This document shows, piece by piece, positions 55,420-63,969 of a stretch of DNA of 64,000 bases. The stretch is from an uncultured Alphaproteobacteria bacterium (lineage in GTDB: Bacteria; Pseudomonadota; Alphaproteobacteria; RF32; CAG-239): positions 22,909 to 86,908 of the forward strand of contig CALXWH010000003.1 of NCBI GenBank assembly GCA_944392315.1, written 5' to 3'. Made by a program: the position numbers and the translations under genes. The first letter of the stretch is position 1, and each line of letters starts with the position of its first letter. The notes beneath the pieces were generated by a model that searched no databases, had not been told where the DNA came from, and saw only the letters and a list, made by a program, of their open reading frames with translations.

Positions 55420-55449
55420 AAAAAAGGGAGCTCATCGGCTCCCCTTTTC
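55420..55449 (-). terminator. Terminator
   Basis: AAAAAAGGGAGC...GCTCCCCTTTTT. Confidence 0.7.
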
Positions 55450-58400
55450 TATTTATAGACATCGTAGAGTTTCTTTAAGACTTCCGGAACATCTACTTTT
55501 AATTCCGCCAATATGTACGCGGCTGTATCTAAGTTCAACCTTGCAATTGACTTAATGCTGTATTTGTCTTGATTTTCTACCCACCGCGGATTGTTATAAT
55601 CTACCCAATAACGTTCCCGATACGATGGAATGGTGTGTACACTCGGCTTTTGAATATAGAGTTTTCCGTTTGGTGCCAGATAAGCAAATTTTGCTAAATT
55701 GCCTTCTTTATCATACGATTTTACCGAAATTTCGCCATTGTTATAGAACATTATTTCCGTCTTTGTTTTGCCGTTACCATAATATTCCATAACCGCATTG
55801 CCTTTGCTGTCTGACTTAAATTCTGATGTTACACCGCCTTTTTTGCCATATACTTTCAGGCTGTCTTTTAACAGTTCGGCACTATTCTTAGCTAAATTCT
55901 GCGGCATATCGGCTTTGTTGAGTTTTAATGACTTGACTTTGCCTGTGTCATCATATTCTTTTTCAACAGAGGCTATGCCTTGTTGCTCGGTTTCTTTAAC
56001 TAACTTGCCCTTCTTGTTATATTCTTTGGTGATAAATACAAGTGGTGTTGTTTGTTCGCTTTCTGATTTTACGGTGCCATCCGGATAATATGTCTTATCT
56101 GCGAACAGTAATGTTTCCGGTTTGCGTTGTATCTCATAACGCGATTTACCGTTATCAAAGTAGTCTTCTCTTGATACAAACGCCATGACGGCATTATCCG
56201 TATAATCTTTATGCGTTTTACGGCGTATTTCTCCTGAACCATAGTATTTTTCAATCAAAATTCCGTCTTTTTCATACTTTGTATCCGTGATTAAGAGACC
56301 AGTTTTTGAGTATTCTTTCACCTCTTCCGTGCGGCCGTCTTTGGTCTTTATCGTTTTACGCAGATTTCCGTTCGGATAATAAAACTTTTGGATTTCAGGT
56401 TCAGATGTTGTTGCTTTTTCTGCTGCCTGCGTCATATGTTCTTTTGACACAACATCGGTTAAATCCTCTATATCCGGTTTGGAAACAGGGCCGATATTTT
56501 TAGCGGCCAATTCTGCCTCTTTCTTTTCTTCGGCGGTCGGGATAATAGCATTTTTAACCTTTATGTCTTCAAACGATATCGGCTCCAAATCTTCTACCAT
56601 TGGGGCAGCTTCGGCAGGAAGAACCGGAGAAACTTCCGCTTCTTTTTCACTATGCTCTATGGCCGGTTCTGTTGTTTCTTTATTTTGACTTACTGCTTTT
56701 TCCGCTACAGCCTTATTGATATTTTCATCCTTATTTACCGTTATCGCTTTTTCTATAACCGGTGTCGGAACAATTATCGGTAAAGCACTTGCCACCGGCT
56801 TATCGGCACTGATTGTCAGCTTACTTTCTTCTTTTGGCTCCAGTGTTGCTTTGACTTCCGGTGTAACTACCTTTTCGCTCGGTTGCTCTGCAATCTGCGC
56901 AGGTTCTTGCTTGATTTCCGTTGGTTGATTTTCAACCTTATCTACCACTACAGCCTTATCAGCCATCTCCGTTGCAACCGGTGCTTTAGTAGCCGTTTGT
57001 TGCGGAGTAGATATCTCTTTTTGCGGTTGAGCTATTTGTGTGGTTGCTTCTTGCTTAATCTTTGGCTCTGCTGTCTTTGAAGCGCTCTCTATTGCAGGCT
57101 CTGACGGCACCTTTGGTTCTGTTACTGGGGTTGTGGTTGGCGTATCCGCGTTTTCATATCCGCAAATATGGCCGCCTTTTATCAACTGATTATTTTTATA
57201 TACCAGATATTCTCCCAATGCCAGGTTATATTCTATATAATTGAAAGGATTGCCGGCATTTACCTCTCTGATGTAATCCATCTTATCATCATAGAATCGG
57301 ATAAAGATATCCTTATTCTTGCTCGGCTCGGCAATGAACGCATCTGTTTTTTCGTTATCGTTATAATTTGCACTAAACGCTAACTTTCCGTTTTGAGTAT
57401 AGCGCACGTATACTGATTTTGGAGAATCTTCTGCAATTGTCATCATCTCCTTTACTGCACCGTTTGGATGATAACTTCTGGCGCTTTCTGACTGTTTATC
57501 CTGATTATATGGAACTTCCGCCAATAATTCCCCTTTTTCATCAAACTTTTGCGCTATGCCTTGTTTTTGCTTTTGATAATACGGAATACTATAGATGCGG
57601 TTGCCTTTTTCATCATATACCGTTTCTACCGCATATTCGCCGCGATTATACCCTGTCGGGAACACTGCTCTTAATCTGTTTAAGCGGTCATAGCAGGCGT
57701 AATTGCTGTTCTCCGGCTTAAAAGATGTGAACTCTATGCAATCTCTCGGAATATCAAATTGAAAAGCCTTCTTTATCGTGTTTACATTGGCGTCTACTTC
57801 TAATTGCAGCTCGCTTTGTTTATTGGCAAAATCCAAACAGCCTTTATCCGGTTGTTTTAGCTCGGCTAATTTAGACGGATTGATTATTCTGGGTTTTACT
57901 TCAGGTTCGGCTCCGTCTATTTTGCCCGCCGTAAACTTTATTTCTCTTCCTTGCGGTCCATAAATTTTCGCAACGCCATCTTTTAGGCCATTTTTATATG
58001 GAAATTCCGCCGCAACGCCGCCGGTCGGAAAATAACAGGTTAATTTTCCCGATACTTTACCGTTATTATATCTTTTTCTGAAAGCTACTTGTTTGGTCGG
58101 GAAATAGCCATTGGCCATACCATCTTTTACACCTTGTTTATAATTGATTTCCGCCGTTAAATTGCCGGCTGCATCAAACTTTTGCTCAACGCCATTTTTT
58201 AGTCCGCCGACATAAGGCGTGATTTTTCGTATCATACCCGTTTCATCATAACTGATTTTGGAGGTTGTATTACCTTTGCTATCGGCTATTTCATATACGA
58301 AATTTTCCCGATAAGGTAATCCGCATTTGTTATAAGAAATGTCTCCCTCGTCTTCATATAACTCCACCAATTCTTCCAGACTTAGTTTAACGACTTTGTC

Positions 58401-59159
58401 TTTGCAATTTTCTGCGTTTAAATCCGGCGCAAAATTCAAAATATTAACATTCTCAACTTCTTTGATACTACGCCCCTGGCGGTTGAAGAAAATATTTTTG
58501 CCTTCTCTCCCAACGGCAAAAGACGCGGCAATGCGTCCATCCGGATAATAGGTGATGATATTGCCTTGACGAATCGTCTGCTGGTTTTCGGGTTTATCCT
58601 TATCTGCGGCTTTCGGCAAAACCCAAGGTATTTCTTGGCGCAGAACGCCATTGTTATCGTATCTCTTTTCTGTGCCGATTTTATTGTTTTCATTAAGATA
58701 GGTTGCTTGGGCTGCCAGTTTTCCATTGGTATAATAGTCTTCCGCATAAAAACCTTTTCCGTCTTCCAAAGCGGTGATTTGACGCGATATCTGCCCATTT
58801 GGATGATAGTAGTTCAGAACTTTTTTGACAATCTCTCCGTCTCGGATGGTCTTTTCGGCAATCACCTTACCATCTGGCGAAATAAGCTTTTCTATATGTC
58901 CGTCTTCGGTTTCTTCTTTGATAATTTTAGGCTTGTTATTGTCTTCTGGCTCTTCTTGTTTGTTTTGGGGCTTTTGAGACAATGATGCACTTAAATCCTT
59001 TTGTGCTTGTTTTTCTTCTGCTTTGGCTTCTGCCTTTTCTTCATCTAATGTATAAACTCCGACTGATGATGAATCTGTCTGCATATTGGTTGAGTTTGCG
59101 CAGACCAACGCCGGTAATGAAACTGTGAGCAATAAAGCGATACTAAGTGATTTTTTCAT
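55449..59159 (-). CDS. Large exported MORN-variant repeat protein with central P/E/A/T-rich linker
   Basis: Signal peptide; many YYxNGxL/YxxGxKxG repeats in two blocks. Confidence 0.8.
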   Translation of the reverse strand: MKKSLSIALLLTVSLPALVCANSTNMQTDSSSVGVYTLDEEKAEAKAEEKQAQKDLSASLSQKPQNKQEEPEDNNKPKIIKEETEDGHIEKLISPDGKVIAEKTIRDGEIVKKVLNYYHPNGQISRQITALEDGKGFYAEDYYTNGKLAAQATYLNENNKIGTEKRYDNNGVLRQEIPWVLPKAADKDKPENQQTIRQGNIITYYPDGRIAASFAVGREGKNIFFNRQGRSIKEVENVNILNFAPDLNAENCKDKVVKLSLEELVELYEDEGDISYNKCGLPYRENFVYEIADSKGNTTSKISYDETGMIRKITPYVGGLKNGVEQKFDAAGNLTAEINYKQGVKDGMANGYFPTKQVAFRKRYNNGKVSGKLTCYFPTGGVAAEFPYKNGLKDGVAKIYGPQGREIKFTAGKIDGAEPEVKPRIINPSKLAELKQPDKGCLDFANKQSELQLEVDANVNTIKKAFQFDIPRDCIEFTSFKPENSNYACYDRLNRLRAVFPTGYNRGEYAVETVYDEKGNRIYSIPYYQKQKQGIAQKFDEKGELLAEVPYNQDKQSESARSYHPNGAVKEMMTIAEDSPKSVYVRYTQNGKLAFSANYNDNEKTDAFIAEPSKNKDIFIRFYDDKMDYIREVNAGNPFNYIEYNLALGEYLVYKNNQLIKGGHICGYENADTPTTTPVTEPKVPSEPAIESASKTAEPKIKQEATTQIAQPQKEISTPQQTATKAPVATEMADKAVVVDKVENQPTEIKQEPAQIAEQPSEKVVTPEVKATLEPKEESKLTISADKPVASALPIIVPTPVIEKAITVNKDENINKAVAEKAVSQNKETTEPAIEHSEKEAEVSPVLPAEAAPMVEDLEPISFEDIKVKNAIIPTAEEKKEAELAAKNIGPVSKPDIEDLTDVVSKEHMTQAAEKATTSEPEIQKFYYPNGNLRKTIKTKDGRTEEVKEYSKTGLLITDTKYEKDGILIEKYYGSGEIRRKTHKDYTDNAVMAFVSREDYFDNGKSRYEIQRKPETLLFADKTYYPDGTVKSESEQTTPLVFITKEYNKKGKLVKETEQQGIASVEKEYDDTGKVKSLKLNKADMPQNLAKNSAELLKDSLKVYGKKGGVTSEFKSDSKGNAVMEYYGNGKTKTEIMFYNNGEISVKSYDKEGNLAKFAYLAPNGKLYIQKPSVHTIPSYRERYWVDYNNPRWVENQDKYSIKSIARLNLDTAAYILAELKVDVPEVLKKLYDVYK

Positions 59160-59287
59160 AACAGCACCATAATTCCTAAAATTCAAAAATAAAGTTCTCC
59201 GTTGTTGATTTAAACATATCTCTCTTATTTTTTAAAGCATAAATTCGCATTTACACAGCTTGTTTTTGCTTGCTTAGTTTCTTGATA

Positions 59288-60679: not shown

Positions 60680-60756
60680 GGATGCGTAGCTCAGTTGGCT
60701 AGAGCAACTGACTCTTAATCAGTGGGTCCAGGGTTCGAATCCCTGCGCGTCTACCA
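60680..60756 (+). tRNA. trnK: tRNA-Lys(CTT)
   Basis: Cloverleaf: GGATGCG/CGCGTCT acceptor, ACTGA-CTCTTAA-TCAGT anticodon arm, GGTTCGAATCC, encoded CCA. Confidence 0.95.
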
Positions 60757-60760
60757 CTTT

Positions 60761-60790
60761 GAAAGCCGTCTCATATGAGACGGCTTTTTA
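60761..60790 (+). terminator. tRNA terminator
   Basis: AAAGCCGTCTCA-TA-TGAGACGGCTTTTT. Confidence 0.85.
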
Positions 60791-60833
60791 TTATAGCTTT
60801 ATTGTGCTTTATACGCCCGCCCACTAATATAAG

Positions 60834-60927
60834 AAAATATCCTCGGATCCTATTAGCCGCATCCAAGCGTGCCAATAGATACTGACTGGGCGATTTCGAT
60901 TTCATTCCCAGTAGCCGAGGACACTTT
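60834..60927 (-). ncRNA. Candidate small RNA, three-way junction
   Basis: 13-bp closing stem plus two inner hairpins, with G-U pairs on the minus strand only; TTGACG-17-TATATA promoter at 60958-60930. Confidence 0.55.
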
Positions 60928-61016
60928 TATATATAGAAATAATTCGCCTTCTCGTCAACTATTTAATTGCATTACCTATATGCTTTCTGTCAAATTGCAT
61001 TTTATTCTGGTTAGCA

Positions 61017-61721
61017 TTAAAAGGGAACATCATCATCTATATCGTGTTTCTTGTTTTGCTTTTGAGAGACTTTTTTCCATTCTTCATCATAATTGCCGAG
61101 ATCTTCGTTCAAACCTTCATTATCTGAGTATTCTATATCCGAATCTTGATACTCGTTAGGATATCCATTCTTTTCTCTCGTTAATTCCGTATTTTCTTTA
61201 TTTGTATGCGCCCTTATCCTTGTTAATAGGCCTTTTATCTTCCAATAGTACGATTTGAGTGTAATTATTATTTTTTTCTGCCAAGGTATACTTTCGTACA
61301 TCTTACTGATTATTTGCCCGTAAATATACTGTTGCAGCCTATCAAAAGGTAGATTGTCTTTTCCATATCGGCTAATAAAATATTTTGATATTTGACTGAC
61401 TTCATCATTGTTTACCAACGGCAGGCATCGTCTGATTTTTTCTTTCAACTGATGTTCGGCTAAATCTTCATCCGTAATTGATAATTCCTCTTCTTCATTG
61501 GCATAGACGACATCTTCCAATACGATATCATCTTCATATCTATCGGGTTCATAATCATCATACTCCAAATCTTCTTCCTCATATTTTTCCGGATCATCTA
61601 ATAATACCATTCTTTCATATTCGGAAGCGCTTTTTTCTGCCACCCTATCTTCTTCATCTAATAATGGATGTGTTTCTTTTTGATAAACTTCACTGATTTC
61701 TTCTTTGGAATATTTAGACAT
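61017..61721 (-). CDS. Acidic hypothetical protein with SSB-like C-terminal tail (DDDVPF)
   Basis: D/E-rich termini, no OB-fold motif, ends HDIDDDVPF. Confidence 0.7.
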   Translation of the reverse strand: MSKYSKEEISEVYQKETHPLLDEEDRVAEKSASEYERMVLLDDPEKYEEEDLEYDDYEPDRYEDDIVLEDVVYANEEEELSITDEDLAEHQLKEKIRRCLPLVNNDEVSQISKYFISRYGKDNLPFDRLQQYIYGQIISKMYESIPWQKKIIITLKSYYWKIKGLLTRIRAHTNKENTELTREKNGYPNEYQDSDIEYSDNEGLNEDLGNYDEEWKKVSQKQNKKHDIDDDVPF

Positions 61722-61736
61722 ACTGTTTCCCTAATT

Positions 61737-62213
61737 TTAATCTGATGCTGAGCATTTTCCTTGATTTATCATATATGTTGTCACGCTTTTATTGCCAATA
61801 TATAGAGTTCCCAGCAATCTGCCCCATACATCATAATGTGGAAGTATTTGACCTTTGAAATAAATTTCATTTTTATGTTTAGCCAGTAAATCCGATAATA
61901 TTTGTTTTGATTTTTTACCTATAGACACTACTTCTTCTGCTGTTATATTTTGTTGTTTTGCCTGTTGACGAGCCTTGGCCGTCCTTTTTATTTCATTGCA
62001 TTCGATATCCGTAAATCTGATTGTTTGTACCGTATCCAGATTACCTTGCCATTTTTCTAAAAACACAGTAACCGTATCTCCGTCTATCACTCTATAGTCA
62101 TAGACTTTCTGCATACGAGTATTATACAAAAAAACAGATGTAACACATAAGAACAAAATGCTCCATATAACTGCATCAGAATGTTTTGCCAGAAACTCTT
62201 TATATTTATTCAT
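61737..62213 (-). CDS. Thermonuclease (SNase-like), membrane-anchored
   Basis: TM helix, VIDGDTV, IRFTDIECNE, DVWGRLLG. Confidence 0.8.
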   Translation of the reverse strand: MNKYKEFLAKHSDAVIWSILFLCVTSVFLYNTRMQKVYDYRVIDGDTVTVFLEKWQGNLDTVQTIRFTDIECNEIKRTAKARQQAKQQNITAEEVVSIGKKSKQILSDLLAKHKNEIYFKGQILPHYDVWGRLLGTLYIGNKSVTTYMINQGKCSASD

Positions 62214-62218
62214 GTTTT

Positions 62219-62677
62219 CTATTTATCCGCACAAGTAAATGGTCTGCATTTGCTATTTTTTAGCATATAATCATTTACATTTGTTTCACCTGCGTACAAA
62301 TTTCCAACCAGACGCTTCTCTCCTTTGCATACGTTTTCCGGTGTTTCTTCAAAGTAAATTTTACCTTCGTTGAAATCTAATAATTTTTTCAATGTCTTTT
62401 GAGCCTCTTTACCTAATATTTTTACTTCTTCCGGTTCAATCTTCATTTCACGAGCTTGTTTTAAAGATTTATCACTTGTTCTAATCTCCGGACAATCCAC
62501 ATTAGCTAACCTTATGGTAACTTTTTCTTGTCCCTTTACGGCCTTTATTGTATCTCCATCACTCACTTTAGTCACAACAATTGGTTCCTTTACTTTTTTA
62601 TCAGTTTCGGCAAAACTATTGGTAAACGCTGCACTTGCCAGTAAAATAGTCATTAGCGGTAATATGATTTTTTTCAT
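62219..62677 (-). CDS. Thermonuclease (SNase-like), secreted
   Basis: Signal peptide, VSDGDTI, IRLANVDCPE, KRLVG; SD GGGGAG. Confidence 0.85.
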   Translation of the reverse strand: MKKIILPLMTILLASAAFTNSFAETDKKVKEPIVVTKVSDGDTIKAVKGQEKVTIRLANVDCPEIRTSDKSLKQAREMKIEPEEVKILGKEAQKTLKKLLDFNEGKIYFEETPENVCKGEKRLVGNLYAGETNVNDYMLKNSKCRPFTCADK

Positions 62678-62701
62678 AACAAATCTCCCCATTATTGCAT
62701 T

Positions 62702-62945
62702 AAAAAGAAAACCACCTTCAAAAAGGCGGTCGGAGAGTTCGTAAATCATATATGGTTAGATGACTCTTTTAGCCTTTCAGACTATTTTTTTCAAGGATCA
62801 AGATAGTCTTTGGACATACGCTAAAAGCCCCCCGACCTTCATCGGGGATATACGTCATTGTCTTATTACAATAACTAACGATGTTATCCAACACCGAACC
62901 ATATTAAAGAGCTTACGACAGCTCCGCACCTTTCTCAAGGTACCG
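62702..62945 (-). ncRNA. C4/CI-like antisense RNA module with a1/b1 targets and terminator
   Basis: Target loops TCGTAA and ATATGGTT upstream; complementary TTACGA and AACCATAT in a downstream cloverleaf closed by 62837-62828/62737-62728; terminator 62730-62702. Confidence 0.6.
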
Positions 62946-62949
62946 TTTT

Positions 62950-62982
62950 ATGCTATAGAATTATGAGTTAATTTATAGTTAA
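62950..62982 (-). promoter_or_regulatory. CtrA-box-like site (TTAA-N7-TTAAC) with TAGCAT -10
   Basis: Minus strand TTAActataaaTTAAC-11 nt-TAGCAT immediately 5' of the RNA module. Confidence 0.4.
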
Positions 62983-63081
62983 GACGGCTTTTTCGTTTAT
63001 AACATTTGTTTTTTGTTGAAATCGCAATTTTTTTATCTACACTTTGTTTTAGACTTATACCTATTCATTGGAGAGCGTACT

Positions 63082-63420
63082 ATGCAGCGTTGTATTGAAC
63101 CTAATATTAAAATTGAAGATACCGGCTTTGGATATACCATGTCTATTATCGGCGGTAAATATAAAATGATTATCTTATATTGGTTAGGCGAATTTAATGT
63201 GTTGCGTTATAACGCTTTGCAACGTCTTATCGGTAAAATATCCTTTAAAATGCTTAGCTCTACCTTAAAAGAATTAGAGGCAGACGGTTTGGTTATTCGT
63301 ACCGTCTACCCCCAGATGCCTCCTAAGGTGGAATATAGCCTTTCACCTAAAGGAAAATCGCTTATTCCAATATTATTTTCTTTGTGTGATTGGGGAGATA
63401 AAAACCGTCCGCACTTATAA
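63082..63420 (+). CDS. HxlR family winged-helix regulator
   Basis: IGGKYKMIIL, ISFKMLSSTLKELEADGLV, PPKVEYSLS. Confidence 0.9.
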   Translation: MQRCIEPNIKIEDTGFGYTMSIIGGKYKMIILYWLGEFNVLRYNALQRLIGKISFKMLSSTLKELEADGLVIRTVYPQMPPKVEYSLSPKGKSLIPILFSLCDWGDKNRPHL

Positions 63421-63969
63421 TGATGCGCCCAAGGATTTGGCTTCTTCCAGGGCTTTGTGTCCCTCTATATCTCCAATGTGCAGCACACCTCCGGCAACCA
63501 CAATTCCGAGATTATGCCATTCCAGATTTTTTAGTAACGACATATAGTATTTCTCTACAGGTTCAAAATTGCTTTTACTGTCGCCCTCGGAGGCCATTAG
63601 TAAAATACAGTCCTTCTTTGGGTTTTCATAAGATGGATTACATTCTGCTACGGCAAATAATCTGTCAAAAGCACATTTTAATTGGCCGGAAAATCCCCAA
63701 TAATACATCGGGGACGCTAATACGACTATTTCTGCGGCCATGTATTCCGGATAAATTTTTAACATATCGTCCTTTTGCACGCATGGACTTAATTTATCTT
63801 TGCCACCACCAAAACATCCGCGGCATCCATGGATGTTCATGGTTTGTAAATCAAAACATTTTACTGTGTGGCCTTTACTTTCTGCGCCTTCCGTAAATTT
63901 TTGTATTAATGCTTTGGTGTTCCCGTTGGGACGAGGACTGCCGTTTAAGATTATAATTCTTTTACTCAT
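63415..63969 (-). CDS. Flavodoxin family / iron-sulfur flavoprotein (NADPH-dependent FMN reductase fold)
   Basis: NGSPRPNGNT, CRGCFG...CVQKDDM, ASPMYY, LKCAFDR. Confidence 0.88.
   Translation of the reverse strand: MSKRIIILNGSPRPNGNTKALIQKFTEGAESKGHTVKCFDLQTMNIHGCRGCFGGGKDKLSPCVQKDDMLKIYPEYMAAEIVVLASPMYYWGFSGQLKCAFDRLFAVAECNPSYENPKKDCILLMASEGDSKSNFEPVEKYYMSLLKNLEWHNLGIVVAGGVLHIGDIEGHKALEEAKSLGASL

What the first reader, a model, noticed from the sequence alone, without database searches (positions are those of the whole stretch)
60778..62993. tRNA-Lys-linked islet: RNA-gated nuclease / SSB-mimic cassette
Seen: AGACGGCTTTTT (the 3' arm of the tRNA terminator) recurs at 62982-62993 and brackets 2.2 kb of AT-richer DNA. 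The whole content is on the minus strand: promoter, C4-like RNA, terminator, secreted SNase, anchored SNase, acidic DDDVPF protein, separate sRNA. No integrase is present. Inference: a compact, possibly undescribed system (DNA-entry exclusion, defence or extracellular DNA processing) under antisense-RNA control; alternatively the remnant of a satellite or prophage.
Basis: partly seen in the sequence, partly recalled or inferred. Interest (0 to 1): 0.72.

Follow-up and report, generated by a model that had tools for sequence, protein, structure and literature searches.

The report
RNA-gated nuclease islet, candidate antitoxin RNA
This 2.2-kb insert, present or absent between strains of an uncultured gut bacterium, carries two predicted exported nucleases and a protein ending like the host's single-strand-binding protein, behind a predicted self-addressed RNA switch that likely helps block incoming DNA, plus a small folded RNA of an uncatalogued family that elsewhere sits tail-to-tail with a predicted RNase toxin gene and likely acts as its antidote.

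Summary
One contig from an independent metagenome skips 60790-62997, so the 12-bp repeat marks a real empty/filled junction. The islet has two separable layers.

(1) A cassette: C4-type leader, SNase A, SNase B, acidic protein. It recurs in 9 other genomes at 6 kinds of loci and is under purifying selection. In 42 distinct leaders the upstream a/b sites match the downstream a'/b' loops copy by copy (b 38/42 own, 4/1684 cross), which points to an address-coded attenuator. The acidic protein ends in the same six residues as host SSB and shows no OB fold. Most likely role (inferred): blocking entry or recombination of DNA.

(2) The 'separate sRNA' is one unit of a covarying three-way-junction RNA family absent from Rfam. 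It forms tandem arrays with variable loops. It lies convergent to a PBECR-like RNase domain at 28 of 30 domain loci, and weakly so in one other family. This genome has three RNA copies and no such domain. Best reading: orphan RNA immunity for a polymorphic toxin. A toxin-type versus RNA-type correlation was not found. Expression and all functions are untested.

The parts
60680..60756 (+). tRNA-Lys(CTT), an integration hotspot; the DNA behind it differs among nearly all relatives read
60762..60789 (+). tRNA terminator hairpin; its 3' arm is the left copy of the 12-bp repeat (60778-60789)
60828..60926 (-). About 99-nt three-way-junction RNA of an uncatalogued family; here an orphan unit; candidate antitoxin of a PBECR-like RNase domain
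60930..60958 (-). Inferred sigma-70-type promoter of the small RNA (-35 at 60958-60953, 17-nt spacer)
   Evidence: read from sequence; similar elements precede other units; not called by the scan
61017..61721 (-). 234-aa acidic protein with a small helical domain (about residues 81-144) and a C-terminal tail identical in its last six residues to host SSB; no OB fold seen
61737..62213 (-). SNase B, 158 aa, predicted membrane anchor; one metal-ligand position changed D to E; last helix of the family missing
62219..62677 (-). SNase A, 152 aa, predicted signal peptide; catalytic motifs kept; last helix missing; conserved Cys pair
62700..62731 (-). Intrinsic terminator closing the leader (stem 62731-62710, then U tract)
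62728..62837 (-). 110-nt C4-like cloverleaf with b' (62757-62750) and a' (62744-62739)
62897..62930 (-). Upstream target region with a (62918-62913) and b (62904-62897), complementary to a' and b'
62945..62981 (-). Inferred promoter region of the leader; conserved in related cassettes up to 62982
   Evidence: not called by the scan
62982..62993 (+). Right copy of the 12-bp repeat; junction of the islet

Best explanation
The islet is a horizontally moving three-gene cassette, predicted to be switched by its own C4-type antisense RNA and likely acting to block entry and recombination of outside DNA, with an unrelated small RNA, likely an orphan antitoxin, inserted beside it. Switch (structure shown by covariation, mechanism inferred): without free C4-like RNA, the upstream a/b sites pair with a'/b' in the same transcript and weaken the terminator, so the genes are read. 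Processed C4-like RNA from earlier transcripts would bind a/b on new transcripts and let the terminator form. This gives a burst in a naive cell and then self-limitation, with each a/b code insulated from the other leaders. Effectors (inferred): the two SNases would cut DNA in the periplasm, one free and one anchored. The acidic protein would act in the cytoplasm as an SSB-tail decoy for SSB-binding recombination and repair enzymes. Small RNA (association shown, function inferred): it would neutralise a PBECR-like RNase encoded by competitors or phage-like particles; this genome holds three copies and no such domain.
For: Empty site at the repeat. Cassette in 9 other genomes at 6 kinds of loci, next to a tyrosine integrase with AAA_25, a serine recombinase, HipA with type I R-M, or Cas9 with resolvase. 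A tRNA 3'-half copy lies beyond the cassette in G050. dN/dS is 0.06-0.28; dS of SNase B and the acidic gene is about 0.35 where cca gives 1.6 or saturation (G018, G050), implying transfer. a:a' and b:b' covary: 181 double-change cells against 59 shuffled. Mean terminator probability is 0.46 free and 0.96 with the 5' target blocked in 36 leaders. Only 2 of 2098 ORFs end in an acidic-x-PF tail: SSB and this protein; 11 of 14 aligned homologues keep the PF tail. The host has ComEC and DprA. Mobile-element DNases that block transformation are known (PMC12378983, passages). RNA lies at 28 of 30 domain loci, all convergent.
Against: No assay of any step, and expression was not seen. ComEC and DprA are near-universal (10 of 14 control genomes over cut-off), so they are weak support. 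A self-silencing switch suits a short burst better than lasting exclusion, and the same leader mostly heads surface genes. Both SNases lack the last helix (71-73 of 107 profile positions), SNase B has a D-to-E change, and SNase B is found in only 6 of 10 cassettes. Three of 14 acidic homologues have lost the PF tail, as has P0069. In several leaders as cut, the window's included (0.89), the terminator forms even unblocked; the result depends on the unknown 5' end (compare). Toxin type and adjacent RNA type did not correlate.
Confidence: 0.42

Rival explanations
1. Anti-phage system: periplasmic SNases cut injected DNA, the SSB-tail protein decoys or senses phage replication proteins, and loss of the C4-like RNA during infection derepresses the operon.
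For: Neighbours include type I R-M, HipA, Cas9 and a type II methyltransferase. Other copies of the leader head a PD-(D/E)XK nuclease and SLOG genes. SNase A weakly matches a PADLOC model (E 2e-5).
Against: No PADLOC match beyond the shared SNase domain and a weak, probably compositional hit for the acidic protein (E 0.003). Two cassettes sit between housekeeping genes. Most leader cargo is not defence.
Confidence: 0.22
2. Ordinary surface or nutritional operon: the SNases degrade extracellular DNA for nucleotides or biofilm turnover, the leader is a domesticated expression homeostat, and the acidic protein has an unrelated job.
For: The leader precedes pilin-like, outer-membrane, lipoprotein, adhesin-like and glycosyltransferase genes. 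Middle genes of the cassette vary and are small membrane proteins.
Against: The acidic gene follows SNase A in 10 of 10 genomes, and its SSB-like tail survives down to 33% identity, which points to DNA metabolism in the cytoplasm.
Confidence: 0.22
3. Decaying remnant of a satellite or prophage with no present function.
For: No integrase; scars of serial tRNA integration; an integrase-bearing element carries the cassette in G024; IS110 splits the leader in G050 and probably G018.
Against: All three ORFs are intact with dN/dS 0.06-0.28; gene order is kept across 10 genomes; the acidic family was not found in viral contigs. A mobile origin is likely, decay is not.
Confidence: 0.06
4. For the small RNA only: it is not a protein-binding antitoxin but a convergent antisense or 3'-end regulator of the toxin-like gene, or a structured recombination site that shuffles C-terminal cassettes.
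For: Always convergent, mostly 14-50 nt from the domain end, and overlapping the reading frame in G285. No global toxin-RNA type correlation (rho 0.03 and -0.04).
Against: Orphan units keep their own promoter-like elements and loops far from any domain gene. The same loop pair recurs in several genomes. Arrays stack different loop types behind one promoter.
Confidence: 0.35

Closest known systems
C4 antisense RNA of phages P1/P7 and C4-like RNAs (Rfam RF01695, c4-a1b1, sRNA-Xcc1 RF02221; A. baumannii Group 1 sRNAs)
   Same: Three stems, a' and b' specificity loops, GGU start, many copies per genome (PMC5320573 passages; PMC2864571 table passage).
   Different: Below every Rfam threshold (best 18.9 bits against 53); long P2 insert; terminator directly behind; no antirepressor among 27 cargo proteins scanned; 30 distinct a/b code pairs in one genus.
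Mobile-element DNases that block natural transformation (IdeA and SxnA of Vibrio ICEs; Dns of Campylobacter CJIE1)
   Same: Exported nuclease as cargo of an integrated element (PMC12378983 passages).
   Different: Here SNase-family enzymes in a pair, with an SSB-tail protein and an antisense attenuator; the effect is untested.
Bacterial SSB C-terminal tip
   Same: Last six residues identical to host SSB.
   Different: No SSB Pfam match; all-helical low-confidence model (pLDDT 56); family limited to this genus in the searches.
Type III toxin-antitoxin systems (ToxIN, AbiQ, CptIN, TenpIN; recalled)
   Same: Structured RNA, often tandem, beside a predicted endoRNase gene.
   Different: Units are about 100-nt three-way junctions, convergent rather than upstream, with different loops within one array and orphan copies; the partner is the C-terminal domain of a polymorphic protein.
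MuF and PBECR phage polymorphic toxins
   Same: BECR-like C-terminal domain, orphan C-terminal cassettes, phage tail-like neighbours (PMC5512222 and PMC5576092 passages).
   Different: In MuF toxins a small ORF follows 89% of toxin genes; here an RNA gene takes that place. The passages read mention no RNA partner.

Membership tests
C4 antisense RNA (RF01695 and relatives) | Rfam gathering score | tested here: not met
   only sRNA-Xcc1, 18.9 bits against 53
C4 antisense RNA (RF01695 and relatives) | Three-stem fold starting GGU, with a' and b' exposed | tested here: met
   98% of cells paired, 20 double changes against 2.9 shuffled; P1 and P3 vary on one side only
C4 antisense RNA (RF01695 and relatives) | a'/b' complementary to own upstream target | tested here: met
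   b 38/42, a 42/42; cross 4/1684 and 13/1428
C4 antisense RNA (RF01695 and relatives) | Controls an antirepressor operon (icd-ant) | tested here: not met
   no antirepressor family among 27 cargo proteins (11 had a Pfam hit, 16 none)
C4 antisense RNA (RF01695 and relatives) | RNase P processing and action in trans | not testable with these tools
   needs RNA data
SNase (PF00565) | Curated cut-off | tested here: met
   29.6 and 27 bits against 21
SNase (PF00565) | Catalytic Asp/Arg/Glu set (numbering recalled) | tested here: inconclusive
   kept in SNase A; one D-to-E change in SNase B
SNase (PF00565) | Full domain with last helix | tested here: not met
   profile positions 1-71 and 1-73 of 107
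SSB | OB-fold DNA-binding domain | tested here: not met
   no Pfam hit; the model has no strands but is of low confidence
SSB | Acidic tail ending in PF | tested here: met
Phage satellite / tRNA-integrated island | Own integrase | tested here: not met
   present in the G024 element
Phage satellite / tRNA-integrated island | Direct repeats marking an empty/filled site | tested here: met
   (one contig)
Type III toxin-antitoxin | RNA repeats upstream of, and co-transcribed with, the toxin gene (recalled) | tested here: not met
   28 of 28 are convergent
Type III toxin-antitoxin | RNA binds and inhibits the toxin protein | not testable with these tools
   needs bench work
PBECR / BECR RNase (partner domain, not in the window) | Pfam cut-off | tested here: not met
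   PBECR3 E 0.029, PBECR1 E 0.061
PBECR / BECR RNase (partner domain, not in the window) | [quoted passage not shown] | tested here: met
   invariant H67 and S120; helices then a strand meander
PBECR / BECR RNase (partner domain, not in the window) | BECR fold | tested here: inconclusive
   best 7m5f_C (CDI system) E 0.068, prob 0.97, then HigB2 and RelE, none at E<=0.001; Atlas first hit PBECR1 0.89, 176 features (a lead)

The most novel reading that the evidence does not exclude
The small RNA founds a class of RNA immunity genes for polymorphic, phage-type BECR RNase toxins. Each toxin cassette carries a convergent three-way-junction RNA in place of an immunity protein, and cells collect orphan units and multi-type arrays as an acquired RNA immunity bank. 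The same islet would also carry an SSB-tail decoy paired with periplasmic nucleases under an orthogonal antisense address code.
Probability: 0.35. Interest if true: 0.9.

Novelty: new variant of a known kind. Interest (0 to 1): 0.76.

Why it matters
PBECR domains are common in phage virion proteins, and the passages read give no immunity partner for them. A conserved RNA at the immunity position, with orphan arrays, makes that question directly testable with a 125-aa domain and a 100-nt RNA. The leader family offers about 30 natural, mutually insulated antisense codes used for host surface genes, which extends C4 biology and could serve as orthogonal switches. An SSB-tail protein without a DNA-binding fold, tied to exported nucleases, would be a new way for mobile DNA to control gene entry.

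Full report
Setting. The window is G000:C3 of a 1.56-Mb genome. Record titles of relatives say uncultured Alphaproteobacteria, and the best-matching runs are chicken gut metagenomes.

Observation. The 12-mer has only these two exact copies in the genome, though two matches at one mismatch are common in shuffles (21/100). The AT shift is mild (0.344 against 0.386; 67 of 697 windows as low).

Boundaries. Alignments with the cassettes of G021, G018 and G050 all stop at 62982, as does a contig of run X10. One contig of run X11, from another study, joins 60790 to 62997 and also skips 63073-63960; other contigs of that run cover the cassette at lower depth. This is one contig among four runs laid, at 85% likeness. 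G021 and G023 go from tRNA-Lys straight to the gene that lies beyond the FMN-reductase gene in G000, so hxlR with FMN reductase is a second layer. G050 has a copy of the tRNA 3' half about 130 bp beyond the cassette, and degenerate tRNA-end/terminator scars show serial integration. How the 12-bp junction arose, by site-specific insertion or by microhomology deletion, is not resolved.

Cassette. The acidic family is tiny: 15 proteins, 6 representatives among 1.84 billion, 9 other genomes among 185,579, none in viral contigs. In all 9 the acidic gene lies downstream of SNase A and the leader precedes SNase A. SNase B is in 6 of 10 and the middle genes vary. Loci: tRNA-Lys in 4; beside a serine recombinase; inside a tyrosine-integrase/AAA_25 element; beside HipA and type I R-M; beside Cas9 and a resolvase; and between housekeeping genes in 2. 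dN/dS is 0.06-0.28. Synonymous distance of SNase B and the acidic gene to G018 and G050 is about 0.35, against 1.6 or saturated for cca, so the cassette moved between species. SNase A shows 1.3-1.5, an allele swap. SNase A keeps the catalytic motifs seen in staphylococcal nuclease (residue roles recalled). SNase B has one D-to-E change. Both end early and keep a Cys pair, possibly a periplasmic disulfide (inference). The acidic protein (60 D/E in 234) ends in the same six residues as host SSB, and only these two of 2098 ORFs end that way. 11 of 14 aligned homologues keep the PF end. The model is low-confidence and helical with no telling fold match.

Leader. 29 of 36 genus genomes have blastn matches, and 6 viral contigs hold the core pattern. 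From the fetched loci 42 distinct leaders were parsed and 32 aligned. The 7-nt b' core matches its own upstream site in 38/42 against 4/1684 cross pairs; the 4-nt a' core in 42/42 against 13/1428. There are 30 code pairs, and duplexes average -28.5 own against -14.4 kcal/mol cross. Both folds are supported: cloverleaf plus terminator (20 double changes against 2.9) and long-range pairing (181 against 59). Both structures were drawn from the window copy, which favours them over the slid controls. Blocking the 5' target raises mean terminator probability from 0.46 to 0.96 in 36 leaders, with wide spread; the window copy as cut gives 0.89 unblocked, while a longer 5' end breaks the terminator. 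The unit resembles C4 as described in PMC5320573 (passages) but misses Rfam thresholds. Of 27 cargo proteins scanned, 11 had Pfam hits (glycosyltransferases, outer-membrane barrels, pilin, Bor, SNase, SLOG, PD-(D/E)XK, Cthe_2159), and none was an antirepressor.

Small RNA. It has two more copies in G000 and forms a six-unit tandem array in G017, whose last unit has nearly the same loops as the window's. There is no Rfam match. A model-fitted alignment of 49 matches, two of them reverse-strand artefacts, gives 259 double-change cells against 85 shuffled; the unfitted 21-sequence alignment has 10 of 23 pairs with double changes. Models find it in 26/151 genomes of the order and 29/151 of the family, 8 genera each. 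Neighbouring genes share a roughly 125-aa C-terminal domain, found in 26/201 family genomes and not in G000. The converse test: 28 of 30 domain loci (30 of the 42 matches listed were returned as loci) have the RNA on the opposite strand within 171 nt, 22 within 50 nt. Of 16 loci not used to build the models, 14 have it; the misses are one weak domain hit and one locus with an RNA-like stretch the model missed. Kin are not independent. Outside the family, 1 of about 149 class genomes (G285) gave two weak RNA hits (E 3e-5, 6e-5). Each lies antisense at the end of a distant domain copy (E about 1e-5 for two of three copies), in the order long protein, two orphan C-terminal cassettes, tail-fibre-like and lysozyme-like genes (named by eye). 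The domain is PBECR-like by weak Pfam hits, the Atlas, invariant His and Ser (PMC5512222 passages) and Foldseek ranks led by a CDI-system chain, HigB2 and RelE, none significant. Against cognate immunity: no correlation between domain type and adjacent RNA type. Many RNA loci have no domain, and some face other toxin-like genes (SLT, Tlde1, GH108).

Literature. 'PBECR' with 'noncoding RNA' gave 0 papers. Listings showed no such system. The SSB-tail mimic search gave one unrelated paper. The library lacks most subscription papers, and no supplements were read; those of PMC2864571 and PMC5512222 may bear on novelty. Seen as passages only: PMC5320573, PMC2864571, PMC12378983, PMC5512222, PMC5576092, PMC12189769 and 10.64898/2026.08.28.747851. 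An earlier AI note (e1-6788319) reports a convergent RNA beside MuF in another genome; it is a lead, not support.

Verdict. Shown: a real, mobile, selected cassette; a covarying C4-type code; an SSB-identical tail; a new RNA family tightly paired with a PBECR-like domain. Inferred: attenuation in trans, blockade of incoming DNA (0.42), and RNA immunity (about 0.5 for some antitoxin role, 0.35 for the full immunity-bank reading). Interest 0.76.

Noticed in passing
L072:7705-8868 (G050:C7); also L048, L065: A 308-aa IS110 transposase element splits the C4-like leader at one conserved position in G050. The same IS end abuts the leader in G018 and G009. Its non-coding end holds short stretches matching both sides of the target, as a bridge RNA would (by eye; concept recalled).
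   Followed up: partly
window 63082-63969: hxlR plus FMN reductase form a second presence/absence layer, skipped by the X11 contig and absent at this site in G021, G023, G050 and G018.
   Followed up: partly
L078:6536-6777 (G000:C5): Second leader of this genome with a different a/b code, ahead of a lipoprotein-like gene.
   Followed up: partly
L077:3674-7400 (G000:C9): An identical-looking 466-aa ATPase/DUF234 gene plus small-RNA unit occurs twice in tandem (duplication or assembly artefact), near tail-fibre-like and holin-like genes.
   Followed up: no
L169:3129-3686 and L173:2336-2944: In two viral contigs the leader heads an exported protein resembling a PLD-type nuclease (by eye; PHROG of unknown function), near a serine-recombinase-like gene.
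   Followed up: no
L084, L110, L080, L185: Polymorphic genes with shared N-termini and swapped C-terminal domains (SLT, Tlde1, GH108), followed by small exported or membrane proteins, lie near small-RNA units.
   Followed up: partly
L200, L201: Orphan small-RNA units lie next to rtcB, an RNA-repair ligase gene, in two genomes.
   Followed up: no
L025:4180-12000 (G005:C3): Phage-like genes follow tRNA-Lys in G005, confirming the hotspot.
   Followed up: no
window 55449-59186: Large MORN_2-repeat exported protein upstream of cca, conserved in the genus.
   Followed up: no
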